A program made the translations under genes and the position numbers. This document shows, one piece after another, positions 50,073 through 60,898 of a stretch of 64,000 bases of DNA (its first letter is position 1; each line of letters begins with the position of its first letter). Below the pieces are notes generated by a model. It was given only the letters and a program-made list of their open reading frames with translations. It was not told where the DNA came from and made no database searches. Origin of the DNA: Escherichia phage Ec_Makalu_002; sequence record MN709127.1; one strand, written 5' to 3'.

Positions 50073-50893
50073 TTAGTCACCTCACCGAAAATTGTAAATT
50101 GTCTACGATTCTCATCGCCGAAAGATTCTACTACGTCGTTTACCTTGATGCAAGTCCCGCGCGGTAAAATTACTTCACATTCGCAAGGATTCCATGCAAT
50201 AGACCCAACAACAAAACCTTTATGATCTTTTACGTCAATTACCCATGATACATTACAAGAATGTTGCATCTTTCCGGTCATTGATTCATATCGATTCTCA
50301 CAATAAAGGCTAGTGCTGTTTGAAAGCCATCCTCCAAAGATGATCGGTGTCATGCTGGTCGATACAAAGTTTTTAAAGGTAAATTCCTTATCTTCAATAA
50401 TACGCTCTATTGTCTGAATGTCAAGATGTTGACCGCGATAAAGAGTACCGTTTAACTTTTCGGTTTTATCCATGACACAATCCATCAAATCGACAATCTC
50501 TGATATCTCATCGGTCATGTCTTCTTCCCCTAAGAGAGCACCATTTACCCATTCGTATTGTTCAGACACATAATCGCAGATTGCATTATATTCTGCTGGG
50601 GTTATGTTGTTATGTTTGTAATGTTTGAATACATTATCTCCAAAATCTTCGGAATGTACTTCATACATCACATTAATGATTTTCTTGACAAATCCATAAT
50701 CTTGCGTTTCTTGCTCAAGGAAACGGATAACTTTCACGTAATCATCAAAGTTAATATGATCGCTGATCATTTCAGTGATCATGTAACCATTAATCCCCTC
50801 AATGCCATATGTTTCGATGTAATTATCCATACGTTCCATCATTGATTCGCGTGATTCTTCGGAAAGGCGAAAATCCTGTAATTTCTTGAACAT
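50069..50893 (-). CDS. ADP-ribosyltransferase, short Alt/Mod-like paralogue
   Basis: R-S-E motif triad: LYRGQ, FVSTS, ECEVILPRG; ATG with GGAGG site. Confidence 0.65.
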   Translation of the reverse strand: MFKKLQDFRLSEESRESMMERMDNYIETYGIEGINGYMITEMISDHINFDDYVKVIRFLEQETQDYGFVKKIINVMYEVHSEDFGDNVFKHYKHNNITPAEYNAICDYVSEQYEWVNGALLGEEDMTDEISEIVDLMDCVMDKTEKLNGTLYRGQHLDIQTIERIIEDKEFTFKNFVSTSMTPIIFGGWLSNSTSLYCENRYESMTGKMQHSCNVSWVIDVKDHKGFVVGSIAWNPCECEVILPRGTCIKVNDVVESFGDENRRQFTIFGEVTK

Positions 50894-50972
50894 TTTAAAC
50901 CTCCCATATAACAGAAAACGGGGCTAGTATAAAACTAGTCCCCGTTTGAGTCAACCATTATTTCTTAAAAAA

Positions 50973-53024
50973 TTACATTTTAAATTTATCCGGCATAGCG
51001 TCTACAGACACAAGATCAGCGATAAGCTGACGTAGAGTTGCCTTATCTGCTTTCTTACGTTCGGTTTTAGCTTCGGTAATGAAGCTGGAGAAAGACAGGT
51101 CAGAAGCAGGTTTAACAACACCTTCACGGATGAATGCATCACCGTCCGCGATCATCTCACCAGATTCTTGTAATGCTGCCAGTTCATTTTTGTTCATAAT
51201 ATGTGCCTCGATGTAATAAGTTTCTTGTGAATCCGTCGATGCCGTAGCACGAGTTACCGTATCAAAGGATAACACAACACCGCGAGGAAGTAAAATCTCG
51301 CATTCTTTGTAAGCAAATGCTTTGTTACCTACTGGCAATACAGGGATGTTTTCCGCGCCAGCAATGGAGAAAGCAACATTAGCGCCACCTTCACCGCGAG
51401 ATCCCGCCATAGAATCAACACCAGCAACGGCACTAGCCACGTTTGCATTCCAGCCACCAAAAATATTAGGTGCAAGGGAAGTGCTCACATAGTTTTTAAA
51501 GTAAAACGCTTTTTGCTTACGTGCAGTTTCCCACATTTGCGACCGGAAGTCCATACCACGATACAAGATAGTACCTGGATCAAGTTTAACACCATAGTTA
51601 GCAAATGCGTTATCCAGTGCATCACACATCTTGACCAATTCTTCTGGGTCTGCGATGCCTTCAAACTCTTCCAGCTTACGGTCGGTTAGGAAGTTGTTCA
51701 TATTGATGTATGCTGCATCCGCATATTCGCTCAACACAAAACCTTCCGCGCCAGGCAGATCAAGATCAATATCTGCCATCATTTCACCCATGTTGCTAGC
51801 AATTGCTTCAAACATACCGGAAGCAACATTACGCAGGGCATCGGTTTTAATCTGCGTGATGTGACTACGCAGCATTTCAGCTTTTACATCTGCTGGCATA
51901 GACTGGTCGACGCGATCCATTGCCAGGGCGGTGATCTTGTTTTCGAATACTTCCTCGCTCATGATTTCTTTTAAGCGTTTGATTGATGCTGCGATGACTT
52001 CCGCAGACAACGGATCATATTGATCCTGAACTTTTACCAGTTCGCTTACTGCATATTTTGCATCGGCTTCGCTTTCAAAAATAGTACGCATGAAACCATA
52101 GCGAGTGATAATATCACTTGTCCAGTCATTCAGAGAACGGGCGGTTGAACGTTCTAAGGCTTGACGGTCAATCAGAGTATTAAACTGTTTCTTAGGTTCT
52201 GCTTCGGTGATATCTTCTTCCGGTTTAAGATTAATTTTTTCTGGATGATTCACATAGTCGCTGTTATAGGTCGCTTGAGTTTTCAGCATTTCTTCTTTAG
52301 TCAAACGAGATTTAGCCGCTACGCGTTGTTCTGCTTCCGCGTTTCGTTCTTCTTCCGACACAAGACTAGCCGCATACGCCTCATCTTTAGTCAGAGATTC
52401 ACCAGTAGCCTTAGATACCCAGCGATCACCTAAATCACTTTCTACTTTAGTGAACAGGGATTCATCGAGTTTAATCCCTTTAATCTTATCAATCGCCATC
52501 CCGCGACGTTTGACAACAACTAAAGCGATCTTTTTGCTGGTCATTACTTCCTGCTGGAATACTTCAAACTTCGGTGTACGACGCACCAAACGCTCTATAA
52601 CGCGCTTAACCAGTTCGGTCTTACCTTTCATGCGGGATACGTTAAAACGGAACATAACAGCGTCTAATTGCGCTTTACGGGCTGTTTCCATGACCACATC
52701 AAAAGCACTTGACATAACTGCAATCGGGTTATCTCCTAGACCATTTTTAAGCTGTACAATACGACCGCTTTTGTTCATTTCGCACAGTACAACATGTGCG
52801 GTCTTGTCACCCATACGAATGATTTTAGGTGTTTTGTTGGTGAAGTTACAAAGACGGACAATCACATCTTTATCGCGTGTCTGTACTGCAAAAAGCTGTT
52901 TAGGATTCTGCTTAGGCTTTAAGCACTGTACCGGAGCAATACTGCCAAAGTTTTCTTCCTCTTCCGTCAACAGCCATTTCTCGAAAGATTCAATCATTAG
53001 ATCGTCGATTTCTAAGTTAAACAT
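50973..53024 (-). CDS. alt: ADP-ribosyltransferase Alt
   Basis: 683 aa (T4 Alt 682 aa); C-terminal R-S-E motifs LYRGMD, YVSTS, ECEILLPRG; position next to gene 54. Confidence 0.8.
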   Translation of the reverse strand: MFNLEIDDLMIESFEKWLLTEEEENFGSIAPVQCLKPKQNPKQLFAVQTRDKDVIVRLCNFTNKTPKIIRMGDKTAHVVLCEMNKSGRIVQLKNGLGDNPIAVMSSAFDVVMETARKAQLDAVMFRFNVSRMKGKTELVKRVIERLVRRTPKFEVFQQEVMTSKKIALVVVKRRGMAIDKIKGIKLDESLFTKVESDLGDRWVSKATGESLTKDEAYAASLVSEEERNAEAEQRVAAKSRLTKEEMLKTQATYNSDYVNHPEKINLKPEEDITEAEPKKQFNTLIDRQALERSTARSLNDWTSDIITRYGFMRTIFESEADAKYAVSELVKVQDQYDPLSAEVIAASIKRLKEIMSEEVFENKITALAMDRVDQSMPADVKAEMLRSHITQIKTDALRNVASGMFEAIASNMGEMMADIDLDLPGAEGFVLSEYADAAYINMNNFLTDRKLEEFEGIADPEELVKMCDALDNAFANYGVKLDPGTILYRGMDFRSQMWETARKQKAFYFKNYVSTSLAPNIFGGWNANVASAVAGVDSMAGSRGEGGANVAFSIAGAENIPVLPVGNKAFAYKECEILLPRGVVLSFDTVTRATASTDSQETYYIEAHIMNKNELAALQESGEMIADGDAFIREGVVKPASDLSFSSFITEAKTERKKADKATLRQLIADLVSVDAMPDKFKM

Positions 53025-53065
53025 TTTATATCCTCTAGTTGATAACCTATAAACCTATATTTATG

Positions 53066-53088
53066 AAAAAGGGGCTTAACACCCCCAT
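53066..53088 (-). terminator. Minus-strand terminator upstream of alt
   Basis: GGGGGTGTTAAGCCCC followed by T-run on minus strand. Confidence 0.5.
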
Positions 53089-53091
53089 TTA

Positions 53092-53304
53092 TTATAATGC
53101 ACCATCGAGCAATTGCTCTAAGGTGTATCCTGAATAGTCTTTTTCAATCAGGATATATTTTCCTACTCGTTTAATACAACCGCGCATTTCAACGTATTCT
53201 GCGTAGTTGATGGTGCGAGTTGTTCCATCTTCTAGTAAAGCAGTACCGATTTCGTTAATGCGGTCATAAGTTACGTCGGTAATGATGATTTCGATGTTAG
53301 CCAT
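53092..53304 (-). CDS. Hypothetical early protein
   Basis: 70 aa; ATG preceded by conserved AGGAG leader. Confidence 0.5.
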   Translation of the reverse strand: MANIEIIITDVTYDRINEIGTALLEDGTTRTINYAEYVEMRGCIKRVGKYILIEKDYSGYTLEQLLDGAL

Positions 53305-53340
53305 TTGATACTCCTTAGTAGTTCGTTTCGGTATGGGTGT

Positions 53341-53369
53341 ATTATGATATACACCCTCTGTTATGTCAA
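53341..53369 (-). promoter_or_regulatory. Early sigma70-type promoter (TTGACA-17-CATAAT)
   Basis: Member of the repeated promoter/leader module family. Confidence 0.5.
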
Positions 53370-53375
53370 CAACTT

Positions 53376-53555
53376 TTAGAACATTTTTGAAATTAATTCT
53401 GCTTTGATTTCGCAGAGAACATCTAAAGATTTCTCGTCACCCGCTTTTGCTGCTTCTGCTTGCATTTTTGAAATGGCTTCAATGTCAGTGCAATTATAAG
53501 CCGCTTGAACTTTAGCGATTGCGATGATTGCCGATTCGATGGTTAAGTGTTTCAT
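53376..53555 (-). CDS. Small hypothetical early protein (59 aa)
   Basis: ATG preceded by conserved leader ...AAAGGAGAATCAAAC; below ORF-track cut-off. Confidence 0.45.
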   Translation of the reverse strand: MKHLTIESAIIAIAKVQAAYNCTDIEAISKMQAEAAKAGDEKSLDVLCEIKAELISKMF

Positions 53556-53587
53556 GTTTGATTCTCCTTTCGTTTCGGTATGTGTGC

Positions 53588-53616
53588 AGTATAGGGGATC
53601 GCCGATCCCCTGTCAA
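53588..53616 (-). promoter_or_regulatory. Early promoter with palindromic spacer (TTGACA-GGGGATCGGCGATCCCC-TATACT)
   Basis: Hexamers at 17-bp spacing; the spacer is a GATC-containing hairpin. Confidence 0.6.
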
Positions 53617-53623
53617 CAACTTT

Positions 53624-54142
53624 TTAGTTATTTTTTAATTGCTCATCTTGCAATAATGCAATCACATGCTGGCGATGTTCTTCCGATTGAGGAACACCGA
53701 AAAAGTTTGTTTTGTAGAAATACTCTAATCGGTCTTCTCGTGTGCTCTCTTCCATCATGATCGCGGGTAGTCCAAGATTTCGGAAACGTCGCTTTTCTGC
53801 TGGCGTAAAATCACTGTAATACAACATAGAATCATCATTACCAGCAATGCTAAACTCATCCTTCATAAAGGAGAATATTGCGTTTAAACGCTGTTTACCG
53901 TCCACGATTTCGATCTCATAGCGAGAGCCATCATCAATCTTAGCCATTGCGATAGCACCAACCGGAAAATCATTAATCAGGTTTTCGATAAACATACGTT
54001 TGTTTTCGGTGTCCCATACCAAAGGACGCTGATAATCTGGGTTCATGTTGATATAGCCATCTTCTAACCACGCCTCATAAACAGAGATGACAAAGTTTTT
54101 AGTATTGGTATAGTAACGGCGTTTAGGCGTTAAACGGTTCAT
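53624..54142 (-). CDS. DUF262 (ParB/Srx-like, GmrSD N-terminal-type) domain protein
   Basis: YQRPLVWD ... IVDGKQRLNAI resembles the DUF262 DGQQR motif; ORF track starts at TTG 54178, ATG 54142 has AGGAGA site. Confidence 0.55.
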   Translation of the reverse strand: MNRLTPKRRYYTNTKNFVISVYEAWLEDGYINMNPDYQRPLVWDTENKRMFIENLINDFPVGAIAMAKIDDGSRYEIEIVDGKQRLNAIFSFMKDEFSIAGNDDSMLYYSDFTPAEKRRFRNLGLPAIMMEESTREDRLEYFYKTNFFGVPQSEEHRQHVIALLQDEQLKNN

Positions 54143-54143
54143 G

Positions 54144-54476
54144 TTATAGTCTCCTGAATGGATCATCACGTAAATCAATATCTTTTAAGAACTCATCCCA
54201 TGAATGGCGGATAATGTTCTTAATTCTCCAGATAAGCGCAGGGATTGAACGCTCTCCCATCTGGAAGTAAGGATCATATGATCCATATGCCCAATATGCT
54301 ACTACAATTCCACAATCGGCGCAATAATATTCTATTTCACTTGCTGGCGACCAAAGTCCATCAATATGATCACGGATCTTGCTTTCGATGTTATGGCTAT
54401 GGCAATCAGGGCAACGGATGCAATGACCTTGTTTATCGTAATTTGACGTTAGCGAATACTTAAACAATCTCATCAT
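54144..54476 (-). CDS. Zinc-ribbon protein
   Basis: CIRCPDCHSH ... YCADCG (paired CxxC); start overlaps stop of upstream gene (ATGA). Confidence 0.5.
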   Translation of the reverse strand: MMRLFKYSLTSNYDKQGHCIRCPDCHSHNIESKIRDHIDGLWSPASEIEYYCADCGIVVAYWAYGSYDPYFQMGERSIPALIWRIKNIIRHSWDEFLKDIDLRDDPFRRL

Positions 54477-55189
54477 AGATCCTTATTGGCTTCAAATACT
54501 GCCTTTGCGAATCCTCGCGGGGTAAGTGACCTGATAGTCTTTGTTCTGGTTCCTTTCCCGCCTAGCTTAGAATGCTGTTTACTGTACCCTTTATTAATCT
54601 GCAACGGTTTCTTTTCTGGCATTATAAAGCCTTGTCCGGTCCATAAGCAAGTCTTTTTCGGGTACATATCACGGGCGGCAATATACTCAGGAAACGTAGG
54701 ATGCTTATCATCTTCCGGCAAATAACCGCCATATTCCCACGGATGGAACATGTAATCAGGCTTACGCCACATGCTAGAGATAACGCTTACAGGATTCTCT
54801 ATCATGTAGGGAACTCCTAGCCATTCACCCAAATAAGCGGTTATTTTAGCTGCCCTTACATCATGAACTTGAATTAATGGTCCTTGTTCTCGTTTCTTTC
54901 GTTCAAAGTGCGCAGCGCCACTAACAGCTAAATTGGTGCATGGTGGGAATGCAAAGATAATATCCGGTTTCCCCCATTCAAGGTCCATTGCTCTTTCCAG
55001 CCAATTTAAATCAATCCATGTGTTTACATATGTAATGTTTGGATGTTCAAATCGGGTATTATATTTTTTGTATGTACCGTGGTCGCCATCGTCAGCATTA
55101 AAGCAGATCACCTTATGACCTGCTTTAGCCCATTCTAACCCCATTATCCCCGATCCGTCAAAGTTGCAGAATATTAATTTTTGTTTCAT
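54473..55189 (-). CDS. Compact C5-cytosine methyltransferase-like protein
   Basis: FDGSGIMG (motif I-like), FPPCTNLAVSG (PC motif IV), MIENPV (ENV motif VI), RSLTPRGFAKAV (RxLTPRE-like); 238 aa. Confidence 0.55.
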   Translation of the reverse strand: MKQKLIFCNFDGSGIMGLEWAKAGHKVICFNADDGDHGTYKKYNTRFEHPNITYVNTWIDLNWLERAMDLEWGKPDIIFAFPPCTNLAVSGAAHFERKKREQGPLIQVHDVRAAKITAYLGEWLGVPYMIENPVSVISSMWRKPDYMFHPWEYGGYLPEDDKHPTFPEYIAARDMYPKKTCLWTGQGFIMPEKKPLQINKGYSKQHSKLGGKGTRTKTIRSLTPRGFAKAVFEANKDL

Positions 55190-55431
55190 ATACGCCCCTT
55201 TAACCCAACACAGATTTTAGAAGGTTCTTTGCCGTGCCACATTAAGTAAATTCCGTTAATGCGTCCTTGTTTTGTATATGATTCTTTTCTGATCTTCTTA
55301 TAGTGTCGTGCTTCCTCAGCCGATTGTTTAGAATGTCGATCATAAAGGAAGAGGAACAAAGGCCAACCATTAGCGGCCTTAATGCAGTTATTCAAAAATT
55401 CCTTATTTCGTTTAATTAATTTTCTTTTCAC
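55186..55431 (-). CDS. Hypothetical basic protein
   Basis: 81 aa; apparent GTG start overlapping upstream stop (GTGA); no in-frame ATG nearby. Confidence 0.45.
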   Translation of the reverse strand: MKRKLIKRNKEFLNNCIKAANGWPLFLFLYDRHSKQSAEEARHYKKIRKESYTKQGRINGIYLMWHGKEPSKICVGLKGRI

Positions 55432-55679
55432 GCTGCCCCCATTGGTTTGATAGTAACAGAATCTAAAAGACCTTTGTTAGCCAGTTCGCGGCAAGTTTTC
55501 AGATCCGCAACTTCCCAGCCAGCCGCAATAAGGTTATCAATGAGGCTGTTAGCAACTTCTTCGCTCATGAAAGAGCACTGTTTGCCGATGGTGTAGCGTA
55601 CACGCTGTAATTTCAGTTTACGGAAGCCTTTAACGTTCAGGTCTTTAGCGATTTTCTTTGCGGTTTCGATGTTAGCCAT
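55428..55679 (-). CDS. Hypothetical early protein (first gene of five-gene operon)
   Basis: 83 aa; ATG preceded by TTAGGAGAATCAAAC leader and promoter module. Confidence 0.5.
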   Translation of the reverse strand: MANIETAKKIAKDLNVKGFRKLKLQRVRYTIGKQCSFMSEEVANSLIDNLIAAGWEVADLKTCRELANKGLLDSVTIKPMGAA

Positions 55680-55719
55680 TGTTTGATTCTCCTAAGTGGT
55701 ATCTCGTCTTGATGGTTGT

Positions 55720-55748
55720 ATTGTAGGGGAGTTATCCTCCCCTGTCAA
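55720..55748 (-). promoter_or_regulatory. Early promoter with palindromic spacer (TTGACA-GGGGAGGATAACTCCCC-TACAAT)
   Basis: Hexamers at 17-bp spacing; spacer forms a hairpin. Confidence 0.55.
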
Positions 55749-55762
55749 CACTTTTTATAAAA

Positions 55763-55930
55763 TTATTTGTTAATTTCTGGTGCGTTGCTAGGATAGTAAC
55801 CTTCTTTAACTCCGAGGTATTTCGCAACCATCCCTACAATCTTCTGTGCTACTACAATGTCAAATTTCAGATAATCTTCGCCGTGGGTTTCAATGATATA
55901 TGCTTCACATGCTGCTTTAGTCTCGAACAT
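55763..55930 (-). CDS. Small protein (55 aa), duplicated gene copy A
   Basis: MFETKAACEAYIIETHGEDYLKFDIVVAQKIVGMVAKYLGVKEGYYPSNAPEINK; near-identical to 59046..59213. Confidence 0.5.
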   Translation of the reverse strand: MFETKAACEAYIIETHGEDYLKFDIVVAQKIVGMVAKYLGVKEGYYPSNAPEINK

Positions 55931-55963
55931 TTTGATTCTCCTATTTCGTTTCGGTATGTGTGT

Positions 55964-55992
55964 ATTATAGGGGATCTCCCGATCCCCGTCAA
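55964..55992 (-). promoter_or_regulatory. Early promoter with palindromic spacer (TTGACG-GGGATCGGGAGATCCCC-TATAAT)
   Basis: Hexamers plus GATC-containing hairpin spacer. Confidence 0.55.
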
Positions 55993-56006
55993 CAACTTTT
56001 TTAAAA

Positions 56007-56288
56007 TTATTCGTGATTAGTTTCGATATTGTGCATTTTGCACCAGTTCAGCCAATCGCCAAGATCTTGATAGTTGATGCTTTTATCTGCTGCCATCGTT
56101 TTTGTCTTGATACCCATATGTGCGTTATGAGTAAGCATTTTTACAGTGAACTCAATTTTATCGCCTTTAGCTTTAACATCAACCAGTTTGGTCCACTGGC
56201 TACCAGCACCGCGAATGTTCATACCAACGATGTTTCCGATGTATGCTTCTTTGTTGTTCAGGATTTCGGTTGCTTTGATGAATTTCAT
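56007..56288 (-). CDS. Hypothetical early protein
   Basis: 93 aa; ATG behind conserved leader. Confidence 0.5.
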   Translation of the reverse strand: MKFIKATEILNNKEAYIGNIVGMNIRGAGSQWTKLVDVKAKGDKIEFTVKMLTHNAHMGIKTKTMAADKSINYQDLGDWLNWCKMHNIETNHE

Positions 56289-56321
56289 TTTTGATTCTCC
56301 AGTTCGTTTCGGTATGGGTGT

Positions 56322-56350
56322 ATTATGCTATGTTCTTACTTTGGTGTCAA
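56322..56350 (-). promoter_or_regulatory. Early promoter (TTGACA-17-CATAAT)
   Basis: Repeated module; non-palindromic spacer. Confidence 0.55.
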
Positions 56351-56358
56351 CAACTTTT

Positions 56359-56628
56359 TTAGATATTTTCAGAAATAAATTTTAAAACTTGACGTAAATG
56401 TTTCTCATCTTTGATAGTCGCCGGAAGTTCTTCTTTTACTTCCTGTGCAAGATAGATATTTCCGTTCCAAGTGAAAGACCCGTCTTCGTTTACGCGATAG
56501 CTGAACATCCATTCGCAATCATTTTCGATTTCATATACACACAGAAGGGTGTAATCTTCAAAGCTATTGATTTCAAGGTCGAAGCCGTGGCGTTTTGCAA
56601 AGTTGGTAGTGGTTTTAGTCAGTGCCAT
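56359..56628 (-). CDS. Hypothetical early protein
   Basis: 89 aa; ATG behind conserved leader. Confidence 0.5.
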   Translation of the reverse strand: MALTKTTTNFAKRHGFDLEINSFEDYTLLCVYEIENDCEWMFSYRVNEDGSFTWNGNIYLAQEVKEELPATIKDEKHLRQVLKFISENI

Positions 56629-56668
56629 TGTTTGATTCTCCTAAGTGGTATCTCGTTTCGATGGGTGT

Positions 56669-56698
56669 ATTATGCTATAGGCGTGATCAGGTGTCAAT
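56669..56698 (-). promoter_or_regulatory. Early promoter (TTGACA-18-CATAAT)
   Basis: Repeated module. Confidence 0.5.
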
Positions 56699-56722
56699 GC
56701 CTTTTTTAAAATTTTATGCAAT

Positions 56723-56747
56723 AAAAAAGCCGACACTAAGGTCGGCT
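56723..56747 (-). terminator. Minus-strand terminator after paralogue P1
   Basis: AGCCGACCTTAGTGTCGGCT followed by TTTTTT on minus strand. Confidence 0.55.
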
Positions 56748-56754
56748 AATAAAA

Positions 56755-57063
56755 TCATTTAGACAAATAATCATTCAGTGCAATCCGGTCGGCATGTTCC
56801 GGCGTTACATCAATCGCAATCACTTTAACGCGTGCTTTCTTGCGACCTGGGTTTTCTCGTAACCAGTGCTCATGACCGTGAACATTTTTATACTGCGATG
56901 CTTCTTCGAAGGTACGGATCGGACCAGGGTAATCAGCGTAAAGGATCTCTAGGTCATCGGTGATGTAAAAATATACGTTGTAATTACTGTTCTCTAGCTT
57001 AAGCAGAGACTTTCGGAACATTGGGAGATTTTCGCGGGTAAATTCAAAAGTAATATCTTTCAT
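56755..57063 (-). CDS. HxHW-family paralogue P1
   Basis: ATG 57063 with GAGGA site (ORF-track start 57210 overlaps upstream gene); motifs YFYITDDLEI, HGHEHW, VIAIDV. Confidence 0.5.
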   Translation of the reverse strand: MKDITFEFTRENLPMFRKSLLKLENSNYNVYFYITDDLEILYADYPGPIRTFEEASQYKNVHGHEHWLRENPGRKKARVKVIAIDVTPEHADRIALNDYLSK

Positions 57064-57085
57064 AGTATTATCCTCAATAGTTGGA

Positions 57086-57107
57086 TGAAAAGGGGGCTTA
57101 ACGCCCC
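57086..57107 (-). terminator. Minus-strand terminator
   Basis: GGGGCGTTAAGCCCCC followed by TTTT on minus strand; same hairpin core as the wac terminator. Confidence 0.5.
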
Positions 57108-57112
57108 ATATA

Positions 57113-57400
57113 TTAAAACAGTCCTTCCTGTACACCGTAGTAGAGTTCGTCGCTGATAATTTCATTAATGCGACGGTGTGCATATTCCTGATTTGCGAAG
57201 TTGTCAGCAAGTTCTACTTTAGTTTCACCGTCATGAGTCCATTTAGTGATAACTTTACCATCTGCAAATTTGAAGTTGAACTCTTTAGCTACTGCATCGC
57301 GTACCAGACGTGCGAACTTGTTGTTACGGATTGCATTATCGGTTTCGTGTGCAGCGTGAGCAAATTTGTTAACTTTCAGAGTGATAGTGATGTATGCCAT
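57113..57400 (-). CDS. Hypothetical early protein
   Basis: 95 aa; ATG behind conserved leader. Confidence 0.5.
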   Translation of the reverse strand: MAYITITLKVNKFAHAAHETDNAIRNNKFARLVRDAVAKEFNFKFADGKVITKWTHDGETKVELADNFANQEYAHRRINEIISDELYYGVQEGLF

Positions 57401-57446
57401 AATTTGATTCTCCTAGTTAGAAAGTGTATCTCGTTTCGATGGGTGT

Positions 57447-57475
57447 ATTATGCTATACACCCGATCTTATGTCAA
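57447..57475 (-). promoter_or_regulatory. Early promoter (TTGACA-17-CATAAT)
   Basis: Repeated module. Confidence 0.55.
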
Positions 57476-57483
57476 CACTTTTT

Positions 57484-57762
57484 TTATAAAATAATTTTTT
57501 GATATTTTTCTATGATGTTTGTGTAATCCACATCAACCGCTATCACCGTTGCTTCGAATCCACCGTTTAGCCAATGGCTATGGTCATGATCGTGAAAGAA
57601 ACCAAGACCAGTACGAAGACCTTCTTTATATTCGGCGCGTACATTTAGATCATCATCGATAAACAGATAAAACCATGAATTTTTACTAGGATTGATGATA
57701 CAACCTTTCAGATTAGGGAGAATATCACGACTAAGAATAAACTTATCACCTACTTTGAACAT
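57484..57762 (-). CDS. HxHW-family paralogue P2
   Basis: ORF track starts at GTG 57777; ATG 57762 with GAGGA site; motifs FYLFIDDDLNV, HDHDHSHW, VIAVDV. Confidence 0.5.
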   Translation of the reverse strand: MFKVGDKFILSRDILPNLKGCIINPSKNSWFYLFIDDDLNVRAEYKEGLRTGLGFFHDHDHSHWLNGGFEATVIAVDVDYTNIIEKYQKIIL

Positions 57763-57766
57763 AATA

Positions 57767-58087
57767 TTAGTCCTCACTTATAAGGTCAAACCAATTGTTT
57801 TTCGCATAATGCTTAATGCGTGCTTGATCTGCTTCCGCTGGTGATAGATTCCATGCAACCACTACAACTTCTGACGCGTCGTCATCCGTTTCTGATACCC
57901 AATGATTGTGATTCATACAGTTATTTGCGATCGAGTGAGCAAATGATTTCATCACTGGAGACGTATAATCATAGTAACGGATTTTCAGATTTTCATCAAC
58001 ATACAAGTAGATCGTATAAGGTTTATATTCAGTAACCAGTAACAGACAGTTACGCAATTCTGGGAAAATCTTTTTAGTTAATTTCAT
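57767..58087 (-). CDS. HxHW-family paralogue P3
   Basis: ATG 58087 one nt after upstream stop, GAGGA site; motifs YLYVDENLKI, NHNHW. Confidence 0.5.
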   Translation of the reverse strand: MKLTKKIFPELRNCLLLVTEYKPYTIYLYVDENLKIRYYDYTSPVMKSFAHSIANNCMNHNHWVSETDDDASEVVVVAWNLSPAEADQARIKHYAKNNWFDLISED

Positions 58088-58088
58088 T

Positions 58089-58307
58089 TTATAATCCTCG
58101 GTCGCGGCTATAGTACACGGTACGCCATACAATTTCATGTTTCGTGTCGCTCCAGCACACGATCTCATTTACTCTTAAATCTTTGTTATCAACAAAAGAT
58201 GAACATTGTGACGCTTCTTTCATCATTTTATCTGCTGTTTTCTCATCAAATACAGCACAGATTTCTTTATACACTCGATAATCTTTGAATTGACTCTGGA
58301 TACCCAT
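58089..58307 (-). CDS. Hypothetical protein, tandem paralogue of 58267..58524
   Basis: Shares SQFKDYRVYKEI...MMKEASQC with upstream neighbour; start uncertain (58307 or 58319). Confidence 0.4.
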   Translation of the reverse strand: MGIQSQFKDYRVYKEICAVFDEKTADKMMKEASQCSSFVDNKDLRVNEIVCWSDTKHEIVWRTVYYSRDRGL

Positions 58308-58524
58308 AATTAACACCATTCCAACCAATTGTTTTTGAGAAAACGTTTATCCACTGTTGAGTGTAGCATGTTTCTTTCCATGATACAATACGAGTAGAAT
58401 AATGGTTTTTGTTTCCAGAAAAGGACGGGCATTTTGATGCATCTTCCATCATCTTTTCGGCGAACTCCGCGTCATATACCCGCAGGATCTGTTGATATGC
58501 TTTATAATCTTTAAATTTGCTCAT
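58267..58524 (-). CDS. Hypothetical protein, tandem paralogue of 58089..58307
   Basis: SKFKDYKAYQQI...MMEDASKC; ATG start. Confidence 0.45.
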   Translation of the reverse strand: MSKFKDYKAYQQILRVYDAEFAEKMMEDASKCPSFSGNKNHYSTRIVSWKETCYTQQWINVFSKTIGWNGVNYGYPESIQRLSSV

Positions 58525-58789
58525 AATTGTTAACTACCTTATCAGCTTCTTTTATTGTTTTTACATCAACTGCGATAATCCGTAAAGGTTCGTCGAAGGT
58601 CCACCAGTGGTCATGAATATCAGCTTGTGATTTATCACCAAAGGAATCACGAATATCATTTTTACATTTATAGCTAATATGGCCTTCATAGTCAACATAA
58701 AGGTAATTATCGAAAATCGGCGTTTTTAAGATCATACCGAAAAATCTTTCTTTGTGTGTCTTATCAAGTGTTGCAGTAATTCGCATCAT
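58511..58789 (-). CDS. HxHW-family paralogue P4
   Basis: Motifs YLYVDYEGHI, HDHWW, IIAVDV. Confidence 0.5.
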   Translation of the reverse strand: MMRITATLDKTHKERFFGMILKTPIFDNYLYVDYEGHISYKCKNDIRDSFGDKSQADIHDHWWTFDEPLRIIAVDVKTIKEADKVVNNYEQI

Positions 58790-58801
58790 AATATATTCCT
58801 C

Positions 58802-58981
58802 TTAGAAAGGGATGGTCATTTCTTGAGCTTGTACATTCTCGTTAGGATTAAACTTCATCCAACCGATATTGTCTACCAGCATATGTACATTTTTATCATA
58901 TCCTACGTGAGTAGTCAACACTAAATGTGCTTTACCTTCAACGATGATTTCCATGTACTTCTGAACTTCGATAGCTTTCAT
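58802..58981 (-). CDS. Small hypothetical early protein (59 aa)
   Basis: ATG behind conserved leader and promoter; below ORF-track cut-off. Confidence 0.4.
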   Translation of the reverse strand: MKAIEVQKYMEIIVEGKAHLVLTTHVGYDKNVHMLVDNIGWMKFNPNENVQAQEMTIPF

Positions 58982-59013
58982 TTTGATTCTCCGTTTGTTG
59001 TCTTGATGGGAGT

Positions 59014-59042
59014 ATCTTACTACTCCCTTTAATCATTGTCAA
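59014..59042 (-). promoter_or_regulatory. Early promoter (TTGACA-17-TAAGAT) with hairpin overlapping -10
   Basis: GGGAGTA...TACTCCC inverted repeat spans the -10 region. Confidence 0.5.
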
Positions 59043-59045
59043 CTA

Positions 59046-59213
59046 TTATTTGTTAATTTCCGGTGCGTTGCTCGGATAGTAACCTTCTTTAACACCCAGA
59101 TATTTTGCAACCATTCCGGTGATCTTCTGTGCTACTACGATATCGAATTTCAGGTAGTCTTCACCGTGGTTTGCTACAATGTATGCTTCGCATTCTGCTT
59201 TAGTCTGGAACAT
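59046..59213 (-). CDS. Small protein (55 aa), duplicated gene copy B
   Basis: MFQTKAECEAYIVANHGEDYLKFDIVVAQKITGMVAKYLGVKEGYYPSNAPEINK; ORF-track N-terminal extension runs through the promoter leader. Confidence 0.5.
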   Translation of the reverse strand: MFQTKAECEAYIVANHGEDYLKFDIVVAQKITGMVAKYLGVKEGYYPSNAPEINK

Positions 59214-59247
59214 TTTTGATTCTCCTATATCTCGTTGGTATGTGTGC

Positions 59248-59276
59248 ATTATAGGGGATCGGTGATCCCCTGTCAA
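59248..59276 (-). promoter_or_regulatory. Early promoter with palindromic spacer (TTGACA-GGGGATCACCGATCCCC-TATAAT)
   Basis: Consensus hexamers, 17-bp GATC-hairpin spacer. Confidence 0.6.
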
Positions 59277-59283
59277 CAACTTT

Positions 59284-59580
59284 TTATGATTTTTCTTTAT
59301 ATGCGTATTGAATAAATTGGTCCGCCACTTCGTCGGCTTTTTCGGGTTTGACTTCTGACGCCAGGACAATAGCTAGATCGGTTTCGTCGTTCCCGTCATA
59401 CCAATGATTATGAGTGTCTTTTTCTTTGATATAGAATGAGTCATTTGGAGTTGGACGACAATATACGTCTAAATTCTCGTCGATGTAAAAGATCCAATCT
59501 TCATAAAGAATAACCGTATTAGCAAGGTTCTTATTACCTTCAACGAAAGGTTCGGTTACAAACAAATCAGTACGTTCCAT
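59284..59580 (-). CDS. HxHW-family paralogue P5
   Basis: Motifs IFYIDENLDV, HNHW. Confidence 0.5.
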   Translation of the reverse strand: MERTDLFVTEPFVEGNKNLANTVILYEDWIFYIDENLDVYCRPTPNDSFYIKEKDTHNHWYDGNDETDLAIVLASEVKPEKADEVADQFIQYAYKEKS

Positions 59581-59595
59581 AGTATTTTCCTCAAA

Positions 59596-59757
59596 TTAAG
59601 AAAAAGCGTTGAAAACAACCGCCAACACAACTACGTTAGCGATAAGGCTTAAAAAGCATTTCTTGAAACTTTCAGTGCAGATACCAATACTGGCAGGAAT
59701 TACACCGATCACGATAGCATAAAGAATAACTGCGATTTCTTGAAATACACCGTTCAT
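59596..59757 (-). CDS. Small hydrophobic protein (53 aa)
   Basis: Largely hydrophobic sequence; ATG with GAGGA site; below ORF-track cut-off. Confidence 0.4.
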   Translation of the reverse strand: MNGVFQEIAVILYAIVIGVIPASIGICTESFKKCFLSLIANVVVLAVVFNAFS

Positions 59758-59814
59758 AATATTATCCTCAAAGTATGGGAGAGTGTTACCCCTCCCGATG
59801 ATTGTTATATTGCA

Positions 59815-60147
59815 TCACACAAAATGGCGTGTCAATGCTTCTTTTGCGGTTCCGCTAAGATTCTCGATCTCTCCTGGCATAACATCAACCGCCAGAACTT
59901 CTACAACATCCTCTGTTCCTAACCAGTGAGTATGACCTTTGTAGAACTTGATGCCCATATTGCCTTCTTCGTCCCATTTAACGCCCCATTTAACGTTATC
60001 ACTAGCCCACCACACATCACCGTCGATAAAGTTGATGTAAAGCACACTACGCCACATTGAATTAGTTACTTTCAATACCGCGCCTTTCATCTCTTCCACG
60101 GTGTGGTCTTCCATTTTGAAGACCTCGCCTACCTGAACTTTTGCCAT
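59815..60147 (-). CDS. HxHW-family paralogue P6
   Basis: Motifs LYINFIDGDV, GHTHW, VLAVDV. Confidence 0.5.
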   Translation of the reverse strand: MAKVQVGEVFKMEDHTVEEMKGAVLKVTNSMWRSVLYINFIDGDVWWASDNVKWGVKWDEEGNMGIKFYKGHTHWLGTEDVVEVLAVDVMPGEIENLSGTAKEALTRHFV

Positions 60148-60164
60148 TTAGTCACCTCTCTTTA

Positions 60165-60344
60165 TTACATAACAATCACGCCAGCCGTTGAAAGTTGATG
60201 TTTCAACTGAGCATTTTCTGCTACTGTCAAATCAATGATTTCTTGTGACGCTGCAATCATATAGCCATTGGTGATATTGTTTTGCATCAGTTCAATGGTT
60301 TCTTCGTTGTAGCGGATTTTAGCGATGATTTCGTTGAAGTTCAT
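60165..60344 (-). CDS. Hypothetical early protein (59 aa)
   Basis: ATG 60344 behind conserved leader; ORF-track start 60380 lies inside the -10 element. Confidence 0.45.
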   Translation of the reverse strand: MNFNEIIAKIRYNEETIELMQNNITNGYMIAASQEIIDLTVAENAQLKHQLSTAGVIVM

Positions 60345-60378
60345 GTTTGATTCTCCTAGTTCGTTTCGGTATGTGTGC

Positions 60379-60408
60379 ATTATAGGGGATCTCCCGACCC
60401 CCTGTCAA
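60379..60408 (-). promoter_or_regulatory. Early promoter with palindromic spacer (TTGACA-GGGGGTCGGGAGATCCCC-TATAAT)
   Basis: Consensus hexamers, 18-bp hairpin spacer. Confidence 0.6.
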
Positions 60409-60421
60409 CAACTTTTTTGAA

Positions 60422-60898
60422 TTATTTTTCTTGATGCTCGCGCTCGTACTTTTCGAAATAAAATTCTACTGGCTGATCGTGGATTGAAAGCAAGCCAAAG
60501 CGTTTAGCCGCACGTAATCCCATGTTACGTTGAATGTACTTCTGGAAGTTCTCGCGTATACACTTACGCCAGTATTCTAAGCCCATACAGCTTTTGTAAA
60601 GATTGCATTGCACACAAGCCGGATTCATGTTGTCAAGTATATCGTGCTCCGGTTTATGCATTCCTACAACCTTATACTTCCACGACCCATCATCATTACG
60701 GGCAATTCGTCCATTTTCATCATAGACTACTTTTGAGCGTCGCAATACTGGTTTGATGTGGTCTGCGTGCCAGCGATCCCCTAGTTCCTCGCCACAATAG
60801 GCACAACGTCCACCGTATTTCATTTTCAGGATCTGGCGTTGCTCTTTCTTTGACAATTTTTTAGGTTTAGGGGCTTTCGCCCCTTCATTATCACACAT
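60422..60898 (-). CDS. HNH endonuclease
   Basis: CAYCG ... WHADHIKP ... N ... CVQCN (HNH zinc-finger nuclease signature); start overlaps 3' end of ligase gene. Confidence 0.7.
   Translation of the reverse strand: MCDNEGAKAPKPKKLSKKEQRQILKMKYGGRCAYCGEELGDRWHADHIKPVLRRSKVVYDENGRIARNDDGSWKYKVVGMHKPEHDILDNMNPACVQCNLYKSCMGLEYWRKCIRENFQKYIQRNMGLRAAKRFGLLSIHDQPVEFYFEKYEREHQEK

What the first reader, a model, noticed from the sequence alone, without database searches (positions are those of the whole stretch)
53341..60408. Ten copies of a ~75-bp early promoter + leader module, most with a GATC-containing hairpin in the promoter spacer
On the minus strand a module of the form AAAAAGTTG-TTGACA-(17-18 bp)-TATAAT-...ATACCGAAACGAA..AGGAGAATCAAAC-ATG recurs at least ten times (spacer/hexamer positions 53341, 53588, 55720, 55964, 56322, 56669, 57447, 59014, 59248, 60379). 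In five copies the spacer is an inverted repeat around GATC (for example GGGGATCGGCGATCCCC), in a sixth a different inverted repeat (GGGGAGGATAACTCCCC), and in one copy a hairpin overlaps the -10. This matches what I recall being described as promoter-early stem-loop (PeSL) cassettes in T4-type phages, proposed to drive modular gene shuffling by recombination between copies. The conserved AGGAG ribosome site also contains GGAG, the known target of T4 RegB endoribonuclease on early mRNAs. The GATC pairs inside the hairpins could make promoter strength sensitive to Dam methylation.
Basis: partly seen in the sequence, partly recalled or inferred. Interest (0 to 1): 0.55.

Follow-up and report, generated by a model that had tools for sequence, protein, structure and literature searches.

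The report
Known PeSL promoter cassettes, RB49-type phage
The ten repeats are real: they are the already-published "PeSL" early-promoter/stem-loop cassettes of RB49-type (Krischvirus) T4-like coliphages, sitting in the very genome region where they were first described, so the finding is correct but not new.

Summary
Ten minus-strand modules sit exactly at the stated coordinates. Each has an A-rich tract, a near-consensus sigma-70 promoter, a conserved leader, GGAGAATCAAA and an ATG. This is far beyond chance: nine matches of at least 11/12 against 0.14 expected. The hairpin counts need correcting. Four modules have a GATC-containing spacer hairpin (not five, and not "most"). One has a non-GATC spacer hairpin. 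Three have a hairpin overlapping the -10 (not one). Two have none.

The window is a Krischvirus (RB49/phi1/GEC-3S group). The region is the alt-to-gene-30 hyperplastic region (ORF185-212) in which Arbiol et al. 2010 defined and tested PeSLs. M59276 is the orthologue of their PeSL206/205.

Comparison with 11 relatives reproduces the published behaviour: cassette gain and loss at the modules, chimeric modules, and two independent ORF210 losses with different crossover points.

Stem covariation and a G.U excess (about 7 G.U to 1 A.C) indicate selection on a sense-strand RNA hairpin, not on GATC. The Dam idea is therefore unsupported, though not excluded. The RegB idea gains support: the leader matches 10 of 11 positions of the RegB/S1 consensus, and the genus encodes RegB.

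Verdict: already known; low interest.

The parts
60342..60428 (-). Module M60408 (PeSL 212/209), driving ORF209-206. It has an A-tract, TTGACA, an 18-nt spacer hairpin GGGGGTCGGGAGATCCCC (one G.U pair, one GATC), TATAAT, the leader AUACCGAAACGAACUA, GGAGAAUCAAA and ATG.
   Evidence: dG -15.8; 12/12. One search shows it is a chimera: the 5' flank is 212/210-type and the hairpin and leader are 210/209-type. ORF210 and ORF211 are absent here.
59211..59296 (-). Module M59276, the orthologue of the published PeSL206/205, driving ORF205. The spacer hairpin is GGGGATCACCGATCCCC (two GATC) and the promoter is a perfect TTGACA-N17-TATAAT.
   Evidence: ORF numbering. PMC2839356 reports about 13,000 Miller units for a wild-type PeSL206/205 clone.
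58979..59048 (-). Module M59042, driving ORF204-199. It has TTGACA-N17-TAAGAT, and the hairpin GGGAGTA-gtaaga-TACTCCC overlaps the -10. There is no GATC. The upstream stop codon lies 3 nt before the -35.
   Evidence: dG -12.2, z -3.7; 10/12; conserved in 11 relatives.
57398..57495 (-). Module M57475, driving ORF198 and ORF197. It has TTGACA-N17-CATAAT. The hairpin GGGTGTAT-agcata-ATACACCC places the -10 in its loop. The GATC just 5' of the stem can extend the stem by pairing with the leader AUC.
   Evidence: One search shows the compensatory stem variant GGGGATAT...ATATCCCC in GEC-3S, RB49 and Phi1.
56626..56747 (-). Module M56697, driving ORF194. It has TTGACA-N17-CATAAT and no stable promoter hairpin (a decayed class-B stem). 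It retains GATC at spacer positions 4-7. A canonical intrinsic terminator (56728-56747, GCCGAC..GTCGGC followed by T6) lies about 30 nt upstream of the -35.
   Evidence: dG -3.7, z 0.1; terminator scan.
56286..56370 (-). Module M56350, driving ORF193. It has TTGACA-N17-CATAAT, the conserved leader and SD, but no hairpin and no GATC.
   Evidence: (dG -2.2).
55928..56012 (-). Module M55992 (PeSL 193/191), driving ORF191. It has TTGACG-N17-TATAAT and the spacer hairpin GGGGATCGGGAGATCCCC (two GATC). In relatives this site holds three different inserted genes: ORF192 in RB49, and other genes in JSE and FL04.
55677..55768 (-). Module M55748, driving ORF190 to ORF187. It has TTGACA-N17-TACAAT and the spacer hairpin GGGGAGGATAACTCCCC, with no GATC.
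   Evidence: dG -19.4, z -5.6. One search shows that JK32 and UPWr_E1 carry a chimeric module here after losing ORF191.
53553..53636 (-). Module M53616, driving ORF186. It has TTGACA-N17-TATACT and the spacer hairpin GGGGATCGGCGATCCCC (two GATC).
   Evidence: ORF186 is deleted between this module and M53369 in PHB13 and JK32.
53302..53389 (-). Module M53369, driving ORF185. It has TTGACA-N17-CATAAT. The hairpin GGGTGTAT-atcata-ATACACCC overlaps the -10. The SD variant is GGAGUAUCAAA.
   Evidence: (dG -13.8).
50891..50970 (-). It has TTGACT-N17-TATACT. The hairpin GGGGACTAG..CTAGCCCC overlaps the -10 and is followed by GTTTTCTGTT. Its SD is a different type (GGGAGG).
   Evidence: It is annotated as a promoter in GEC-3S.
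53070..53086 (-). Canonical intrinsic terminator after ORF185 (GGGGGTGTTAAGCCCC followed by T5). It separates the early units from alt.
   Evidence: It is annotated as a terminator in GEC-3S.
57093..57107 (-). Canonical intrinsic terminator after ORF198 (GGGGCGTTAAGCCCC followed by CTTTTC).
55763..55930 (-). ORF191, a 55-aa ORFan. It is a paralogue of ORF205 (59046-59213; 85% nt identity over 172 nt), and each copy is preceded by a class-A module. This is an intragenomic duplication of a module-plus-ORF cassette.
   Evidence: families D3, D1, D7; same cluster, g7.

Best explanation
These are PeSL (promoter-early stem-loop) cassettes of an RB49-type T4-like coliphage (genus Krischvirus). Each module is a compact intergenic unit with four roles.

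1. Early promoter. An A-rich UP-like tract plus a near-consensus sigma-70 promoter fires from unmodified host RNA polymerase immediately after infection.
2. Attenuator. A G(n)-loop-C(n) hairpin sits in the spacer or over the -10. It is transcribed only by read-through from the upstream unit, and it terminates or attenuates that transcript. This insulates each small ORFan unit.
3. Translation start and likely RegB target. A short, mostly unstructured, conserved leader ends in GGAGAAUCAAA-AUG. This is a strong initiation site and most likely a RegB/S1 cleavage site that shuts these early mRNAs off later in infection.
4. Recombination substrate. Because about 85-100 nt are conserved between copies, the modules act as portable homology for homologous recombination. 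This deletes, inserts, duplicates and swaps the ORFan cassettes between them.

Basis for each step: the sequence anatomy, the structural selection and the recombination footprints are shown here. Promoter strength, terminator activity and mini-circle formation come from published experiments on orthologous or near-identical elements. RegB cleavage of these leaders is my inference.
For: Identity and locus:
- megablast places the window in Krischvirus at 94-100% identity.
- Gene order matches RB49/phi1 ORF184(alt)-ORF213(gp30).
- GEC-3S annotates the same sites as promoter, -35 and -10.

Published definition and assays (PMC2839356):
- PeSLs are a sigma-70 consensus promoter, an AT-rich upstream tract, a stem-loop most often between the -35 and -10 or overlapping the -10, an SD and an ATG. 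There are 52 in phi1 and 51 in RB49.
- The PeSL211/210 stem-loop terminates about as well as rrnB T1.
- A wild-type PeSL206/205 clone gave about 13,000 Miller units.
- ORFan192 and ORFan210 form mini-circles.
- PMC4122927 describes the RB49/phi1 type as 'GN-loop-CN' with TTGACA-N17-TATAAT.
- The RB49 early-promoter consensus agrees with 5'-end mapping (PMC1524935).

Shown here:
- Promoter statistics.
- 8 of 10 modules have stable hairpins.
- 44 unique hairpins show many covarying stem types, with compensatory changes (GGGTGTAT/ATACACCC versus GGGGATAT/ATATCCCC). G.U outnumbers A.C inside stems by 9 to 1, about 7 to 1 after removing nested duplicates.
- The one module with a canonical terminator just upstream (M56697) has let its embedded hairpin decay.
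- Breakpoints fall on modules. ORF186 loss, the 2.3-kb loss in MIZ4 and the 4-kb loss in FL04 all run module to module. Three different genes are inserted at M55992. ORF195/196 and ORF210 are flanked by modules.
- Chimeric modules show two independent crossover points for ORF210 loss and a chimera after ORF191 loss.
- RegB: the site matches the consensus at 10 of 11 positions, the motif is exclusive to promoter-proximal genes, RegB is present in RB49, and the site is mostly unpaired.
Against: - The embedded hairpins lack a canonical U-tract and are not called by the terminator scan. Their attenuator role rests on one published reporter assay of a related stem-loop.
- M56350 has no hairpin at all.
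- Breakpoints are not exclusive to modules. ORF189.1 loss, the FL04 insertion between ORF188 and ORF187, the insertion between ORF209 and ORF208, and the ORF207 allele swap all occur at non-module junctions. By my rough count, 8 of 10 module junctions and about 6-7 of 13 other junctions are polymorphic, so the enrichment is not statistically decisive in this small sample.
- No transcript, RegB-cleavage or promoter data exist for this particular phage.
- RB49 RegB is divergent and its specificity on GGAGAAUCAAA is untested.
Confidence: 0.9

Rival explanations
1. Dam-sensitive promoters. The GATC sites in the spacer or hairpin make early-promoter strength, or SeqA/MutH access and hence recombination, depend on adenine methylation by host or phage Dam. 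One version would be a replication-coupled shut-off through hemimethylation.
For: - GATC is enriched in spacers. Six of 10 window modules carry it, against 0.089 expected per module. Genome-wide in RB49 it is 15 of 48, a naive binomial of about 1e-5.
- It usually sits at spacer positions 3-8, next to the -35.
- It is invariant among orthologues of M57475 and M56697 while the flanking bases vary.
- The genus encodes its own Dam-class methyltransferase (PF02086, E = 2e-30).
- GATC is not avoided in the genome.
Against: - The copies are paralogues that recombine with each other, so the counts are not independent.
- GATC is a palindrome, so one occurrence in a stem arm automatically gives two.
- Either GATC is lost in natural orthologues while pairing is kept (GGGGGTC...GATCCCC with a G.U pair; GGGGATCACGTATCCCC).
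- About 70% of stem types genome-wide lack GATC.
- In M57475 the GATC is explained as part of an extended stem.
- The GATC lies in the spacer, not in the hexamers where known Dam-sensitive promoters carry it (my knowledge of IS10 pIN and similar cases).
- Packaged DNA should arrive fully methylated, and early promoters act before replication.
- Neither PeSL paper mentions GATC.
Confidence: 0.08
2. The inverted repeats are DNA-level operators for a dimeric phage or host repressor that switches early promoters off, rather than RNA hairpins.
For: - The palindromes lie between or over the -35 and -10, the classic operator position.
- RB49-type phages lack MotA-type middle-mode control (PMC1524935), so another early shut-off device would be useful.
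Against: - Stem sequences differ widely (GGGGATC, GGGGAGG, GGGAGTA, GGGTGTAT, GGGGATAT, CGGGGAG and others). Loops differ in length and sequence, and the position relative to the hexamers shifts, yet pairing is kept by compensatory changes.
- Non-Watson-Crick positions are G.U on the sense strand rather than A.C, about 7 to 1 (p about 0.035). That fits RNA pairing, not a symmetric protein site.
- A canonical terminator can substitute for the hairpin (M56697).
Confidence: 0.04
3. The repeats are plain early promoters kept similar only by selection for promoter and RBS strength. The association with indels is incidental, because any whole-gene indel must end in intergenic DNA.
For: - Non-module junctions are also often polymorphic.
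- The hexamers and SD are functionally constrained in any case.
Against: - Conservation extends well beyond the functional hexamers, into AAAAAGTTG and (G/A)CACACAUACCGAAACGA.
- Modules are demonstrably chimeric, with different crossover points.
- Multi-kb deletions run exactly from module to module.
- Three unrelated genes occupy the same module site in different phages.
- Published inverse PCR recovered mini-circles with junctions inside PeSLs.
Confidence: 0.08

Closest known systems
PeSL (promoter-early stem-loop) cassettes of coliphages RB49 and phi1 (Arbiol, Comeau, Kutateladze, Adamia and Krisch 2010, Genome Biol Evol 2:140; PMC2839356)
   Same: Everything that defines them matches:
- A near-perfect TTGACA-N17-TATAAT promoter and an AT-rich upstream tract carrying the upstream stop codon.
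- A G(n)-loop-C(n) stem-loop between the -35 and -10 or over the -10, then an SD and an ATG.
- Location in a hyperplastic region, upstream of ORFans.
- Association with indels and chimeric junctions.

The modules here are orthologues of named elements in the same alt-to-gene-30 region. For example, M59276 is PeSL206/205 and M55992 is PeSL193/191.
   Different: - Gene content differs from both reference phages. The window has no ORF192, ORF195/196, ORF210 or ORF211, and it carries a rare ORF207 allele.
- M60408 is a fusion module that is present in neither RB49 nor phi1 in this form.
- Minor additions from this work, not found in the term searches of the two PeSL papers: the 10-of-11 match of the leader to the RegB/S1 site, the G.U-over-A.C asymmetry, and the positional GATC enrichment.
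PeSL/PmSL motifs of other T4-like phages: T4/PST and KVP40/nt-1 (Comeau, Arbiol and Krisch 2014; PMC4122927)
   Same: The same composite promoter-terminator logic, and the same role as recombination linkers in hyperplastic regions.
   Different: Those have other promoter consensus sequences (TTTACW...TAYWAT; TTGYVH...TAWWAT) and other stems (AGNA-loop-TCNT; A3-4G3-loop-C3T3-4). The window has the RB49-type consensus.
T4 RegB/S1 endoribonuclease target sites in early-gene Shine-Dalgarno regions (Durand et al. 2006; PMC1702504)
   Same: An 11-nt site starting with GGAG followed by an A-rich tract. GGAGAAUCAAA matches GGAGRAYARAA at 10 of 11 positions. It lies in the SD of promoter-proximal early genes and is predicted to be mostly unpaired.
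   Different: Position 8 is C where A is strongly preferred. RB49 RegB is a divergent orthologue. Cleavage of these leaders has not been tested.
Morons of lambdoid phages (a gene with its own promoter and terminator)
   Same: Self-contained, transcriptionally autonomous accessory-gene cassettes.
   Different: Moron flanks are not conserved repeats and are not thought to mediate mobility, a contrast drawn by Arbiol et al.. Here the regulatory flank is itself the recombination substrate.

Membership tests
PeSL (RB49/phi1 type) | Near-consensus sigma-70 early promoter, TTGACA-N17(18)-TATAAT | tested here: met
   Nine modules score 11-12 of 12 and one scores 10 of 12, all on the minus strand. Simulations give 0.14 expected.
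PeSL (RB49/phi1 type) | AT-rich tract upstream of the -35 that contains the stop codon of the upstream gene | tested here: met
   AAAAAGTTG / AAAAAGTG tracts, with the upstream stop codons within about 5-25 nt. M59042 is truncated, with its stop codon 3 nt before the -35.
PeSL (RB49/phi1 type) | Stable G(n)-loop-C(n) stem-loop in the spacer, over a hexamer, or immediately flanking the promoter | tested here: met
   Eight of 10 have embedded hairpins (dG -12 to -19 kcal/mol). M56697 has a terminator hairpin in the upstream AT-rich tract. M56350 has none. Covariation among relatives is shown.
PeSL (RB49/phi1 type) | Shine-Dalgarno sequence and start codon of the downstream gene at the 3' end | tested here: met
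   GGAG(A/T)ATCAAA followed by 0-3 nt and ATG in all ten.
PeSL (RB49/phi1 type) | Located in a hyperplastic region, upstream of ORFans | tested here: met
   The region is ORF185-ORF212 between alt and gene 30. Nine of the ten promoter-proximal ORFs were scanned and hit only PHROGs of unknown function; ORF205, a paralogue of ORF191, was not scanned on its own.
PeSL (RB49/phi1 type) | Indel or replacement breakpoints and chimeric junctions lie within the motif | tested here: met
   Caveat: several indels also occur at non-module junctions.
PeSL (RB49/phi1 type) | Promoter and terminator activity in vivo; mini-circle formation | not testable with these tools
   Published for orthologous or near-identical elements only: PeSL206/205, PeSL193/192, the PeSL211/210 stem-loop, and ORFan192/210 mini-circles (PMC2839356).
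RegB/S1 cleavage site | An 11-nt single-stranded GGAG plus A-rich site (GGAGRAYARAA) | tested here: met
   10 of 11 positions match in nine modules. Mean predicted unpaired probability is 0.44-0.81.
RegB/S1 cleavage site | The phage encodes RegB | tested here: inconclusive
   RegB is present in the RB49 genome (PF10715, E = 1e-48) and reported in the literature. The gene lies outside this 64-kb window, so for this isolate its presence is inferred from genus-level relatedness.
RegB/S1 cleavage site | Cleavage within GGAG in vivo | not testable with these tools
   Needs primer extension or RNA-seq in wild-type versus regB-mutant infections.
Dam-regulated promoter | A GATC whose methylation state changes RNA polymerase or regulator binding (typically in a hexamer or an operator), conserved as GATC | tested here: not met
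   The GATC lies in the spacer, not in the hexamers. Either copy is replaced in orthologues while the stem is kept. Most stems lack GATC. The functional effect itself is not testable here.
Canonical intrinsic (Rho-independent) terminator | GC-rich stem directly followed by a U-tract | tested here: not met
   The promoter-embedded hairpins are followed by UAUAAU or AUCGAA and are not called on the minus strand by the terminator scan. Three separate canonical terminators are called at 53070-53086, 56728-56747 and 57093-57107.

The most novel reading that the evidence does not exclude
The positionally conserved GATC next to the -35, often doubled in the hairpin, is functional. Together with the phage-encoded Dam, it would couple early-promoter activity or PeSL recombination to the methylation or replication state of the phage DNA. 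For example, SeqA could bind hemimethylated sites after replication and silence early promoters in a phage that lacks MotA-type middle control. Alternatively, MutH-type nicking could make PeSLs recombination hot spots.
Probability: 0.07. Interest if true: 0.55.

Novelty: already known. Interest (0 to 1): 0.15.

Why it matters
As a discovery it does not matter much. PeSLs were defined in 2010 in exactly this genus and this genomic region, and they are annotated as promoters in at least one public record (GEC-3S).

The window is still a clean natural illustration of the published model:
- It carries a fusion module at the site where the ORFan210 cassette, shown experimentally to excise as a mini-circle, is missing.
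- A second phage lost the same cassette through a different crossover.

Three small additions could sharpen the model:
- Promoter-proximal genes use a leader that fits the RegB/S1 target, while internal genes use a different conserved initiation region.
- The stems show an RNA-type G.U asymmetry.
- GATC is positionally enriched in the spacers.

All three are cheap to test in this phage-therapy-relevant group.

Tried and rejected
- Assembly artefact: rejected. The modules are present in about 60 independent genomes.
- Known structured RNA or tRNA: none in 50-64 kb at E up to 1 apart from one chance snoRNA hit, and no tRNAs in the window.
- First greedy HSP chaining for breakpoints mis-chained around the repeats. 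I supplemented it with an ORF-cluster gene-order map, whose crude ORF calling creates a few spurious or merged ORFs (g8, g18, g14). Conclusions were drawn only where both approaches agree.
- A Fisher-type test of module versus non-module junction polymorphism: by my count, about 8 of 10 against about 6-7 of 13. This is not significant, so I do not claim a statistical enrichment from 11 genomes.
- GATC as a selected motif: naive binomials are very small, but I discounted them because of paralogy, palindromy and natural loss of either GATC.
- DNA operator or cruciform reading: rejected on covariation and the G.U asymmetry.
- Desplats et al. 2002 (5'-end mapping in RB49) could not be read. I rely on its citation in PMC1524935.
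- My recalled T4 RegB and Dam sequences were used only as local tblastn probes. The hits were confirmed independently with Pfam.

Full report
**1. Observation**

Reading 53,000-61,000 on the minus strand shows the repeated module directly. An unbiased repeat search recovers it as a 7-copy 81-nt family and a 5-copy 64-nt family.

A hexamer scan and the independent consensus scan place the ten promoters with -35 starts at 60408, 59276, 59042, 57475, 56697, 56350, 55992, 55748, 53616 and 53369.

- Nine modules score 11-12 of 12 against TTGACA-N17/18-TATAAT. The tenth (TAAGAT) scores 10 of 12.
- In 53.3-60.45 kb there are nine matches of at least 11/12 on the minus strand and none on the plus strand. 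Second-order Markov simulations give a mean of 0.14.
- GGAGAATCAAA occurs nine times exactly and once with one mismatch, only in these modules, across the whole 64 kb.

The hairpin counts need correcting:

| Hairpin type | Modules | Count |
|---|---|---|
| GATC-containing spacer hairpin | M53616, M55992, M59276, M60408 | 4 |
| Spacer hairpin without GATC | M55748 | 1 |
| Hairpin overlapping the -10 | M53369, M57475, M59042 | 3 |
| No embedded hairpin | M56697, M56350 | 2 |

M56697 has a canonical terminator about 30 nt upstream of its -35.

**2. Identity of the locus**

megablast puts the window in genus Krischvirus, the RB49/phi1/JSE/GEC-3S group, at 94-100% identity.

The annotated records show the region is the block ORF185-ORF212 between alt (ORF184; window 50973-53024) and DNA ligase gp30 (window 60891-62393). 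GEC-3S annotates the same sites as promoter, -35 and -10.

This is the hyperplastic region in which Arbiol et al. 2010 (PMC2839356) defined PeSLs. Their definition covers:
- A sigma-70 consensus promoter with an AT-rich upstream tract.
- An SD and a start codon.
- 52 copies in phi1 and 51 in RB49.

They showed that the PeSL211/210 stem-loop terminates about as well as rrnB T1. A wild-type PeSL206/205 clone gave about 13,000 Miller units. ORFan192 and ORFan210 excise as mini-circles with junctions inside PeSLs.

M59276 is the orthologue of PeSL206/205, and M55992 is PeSL193/191. Comeau et al. 2014 (PMC4122927) summarise the RB49 type as GN-loop-CN with TTGACA-N17-TATAAT. Nolan et al. 2006 (PMC1524935) state that the RB49 early consensus, including T or C at -12, agrees with 5'-end mapping, and that RB49 lacks MotA-type middle promoters.

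A genome-wide scan of an RB49 assembly finds 48 such modules, 47 of them on one strand.

**3. Independent test of the recombination model**

I compared the window with 11 relatives.

Events whose ends lie in modules:
- Loss of ORF186 (PHB13, JK32).
- A 2.3-kb loss of ORF186-191 (MIZ4).
- A 4-kb loss running from M56350 to M60408 (FL04).
- Loss of ORF191 (JK32, UPWr_E1).
- Gain or loss of ORF195/196 and of ORF210, each flanked by modules.
- Three unrelated genes occupying the M55992 site in RB49, JSE and FL04.

Modules are visibly chimeric. After ORF191 loss, JK32 and UPWr_E1 join the ORF191-type core to the ORF190-type leader. The window's M60408 joins the 212/210-type 5' flank to the 210/209-type hairpin and leader. 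JK32 lost ORF210 through a crossover on the other side of the hairpin.

ORF191 and ORF205 are an intragenomic duplicate of a module-plus-ORF cassette.

Not every indel uses a module. ORF189.1 loss, two small insertions and the ORF207 allele swap do not. With 11 genomes the junction-level enrichment is not statistically decisive.

**4. What the hairpin is selected for**

Across 12 genomes plus the genome-wide RB49 set there are 44 unique hairpins with many stem sequences. All keep a 5' G-run and a 3' C-run.

- Orthologues show double compensatory changes: GGGTGTAT/ATACACCC versus GGGGATAT/ATATCCCC.
- Internal non-Watson-Crick pairs are G.U 9 times and A.C once. That is about 7 to 1 after removing nested duplicates, one-sided p about 0.035.
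- This asymmetry fits pairing in sense-strand RNA, meaning the read-through transcript. It does not fit a symmetric DNA operator.
- The only module with a canonical terminator immediately upstream has lost its embedded stem. That also fits a terminator or attenuator role.
- The embedded hairpins lack U-tracts, so 'attenuator' is safer than 'terminator'.

**5. GATC and Dam**

GATC is common in the window: 372 copies, 1.06 times the Markov expectation. It is still enriched in spacers: 6 of 10 modules here and 15 of 48 genome-wide, usually at spacer positions 3-8. The genus encodes a Dam-class enzyme.

Several facts weigh against a Dam role:
- The copies are recombining paralogues, so the counts are not independent.
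- GATC is palindromic, so it doubles automatically in a stem.
- Either GATC is lost in natural variants while pairing is kept.
- Most stems lack GATC.
- In M57475 the GATC extends the stem.

I rate a Dam-linked function at about 7-8%.

**6. RegB**

The RegB/S1 target is an 11-nt single-stranded GGAGRAYARAA (PMC1702504). GGAGAAUCAAA matches 10 of 11 positions and is predicted to be mostly unpaired.

Promoter-proximal genes all use this site. Internal genes use a second conserved initiation region, GAGGAWWAUAYU-AUG.

RB49 has a divergent regB, shown by the review PMC3014915 and by Pfam PF10715 at E = 1e-48. RegB inactivation of these early leaders is therefore a reasonable but untested inference.

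**7. Verdict**

The feature is already known and was published for this exact locus. Interest is low. The only non-excluded novel angle is a function for the spacer GATC.

Noticed in passing
window 56755-57063, 57484-57762, 57767-58087, 58511-58789, 59284-59580, 59815-60147 (minus strand): Six small ORFs (92-110 aa; ORF197, 199, 200, 203, 206, 208) form a divergent paralogue family at 22-29% identity. They share an invariant H-x-H-W motif and a C-terminal (V/I)A(V/I)DV-like segment. None has a significant Pfam hit. This is a tandemly expanded ORFan family inside the hyperplastic region.
   Followed up: partly
window 59596-59757 (minus strand): The ORF207 allele here is a 53-aa hydrophobic peptide that differs from all 11 relatives compared, which carry an unrelated 63-aa ORF or none. 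It occurs in only 2 of 50,697 phage records (G37-3, FL15) and has no PHROG. The swap is bounded by copies of the conserved initiation region TTGAGGAWAATAYTATG (repeat family D6: 57047, 59564, 59741), not by PeSLs. This suggests a second, shorter class of recombination linker.
   Followed up: partly
window 53304-60356, gene starts: There are two sharply separated translation-initiation types. All ten promoter-proximal genes use GGAG(A/T)ATCAAA-ATG. About half of the internal genes of the operons, and alt, use GAGGAWWATAYT-ATG; the remaining internal genes use other start regions.
   Followed up: partly
window 53624-55189 (minus strand): A gene trio sits inside the hyperplastic region. ORF187 has a GmrSD_N / DUF262-type nuclease N-terminal domain (E = 4e-20). 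ORF188 is a zinc-ribbon protein. ORF189 is annotated in relatives as a DNA (C-5 cytosine) methyltransferase but has no Pfam hit at E up to 0.01. This may be an anti-restriction or modification module. The whole block is absent from MIZ4.
   Followed up: partly
whole window: GGCC is strongly under-represented (28 observed against 74 Markov-expected, ratio 0.38). AGCT (0.64) and GTAC (0.75) are also low, while GATC is not avoided (1.06). This looks like restriction-site avoidance in a phage with unmodified cytosine.
   Followed up: no
window 53025-53090 (minus strand): Between the ORF185 terminator and the alt start lies CATAAATA, one mismatch from the T4 late-promoter consensus TATAAATA (consensus from my own knowledge). 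This would fit alt being a late, packaged protein that is insulated from the early units by the terminator at 53070-53086.
   Followed up: no
window 59760-59835 (minus strand): A degenerate eleventh module overlaps the 3' end of ORF208. It has TTGACA, a poor -10, the hairpin GGGAGGGGTAACACTCTCCC downstream of the -10, and then a GAGGA-type start region. It may correspond to the published subclass with the stem-loop downstream of the -10.
   Followed up: partly
L012-L015 (RB49 assembly OZ035808), about 30341: This 'RB49' assembly differs from reference RB49 (NC_005066) in the same hyperplastic region. It lacks ORF186 and has a chimeric class-A core fused to the ORF185 leader, so laboratory lineages or assemblies labelled RB49 are themselves polymorphic at PeSLs.
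   Followed up: no
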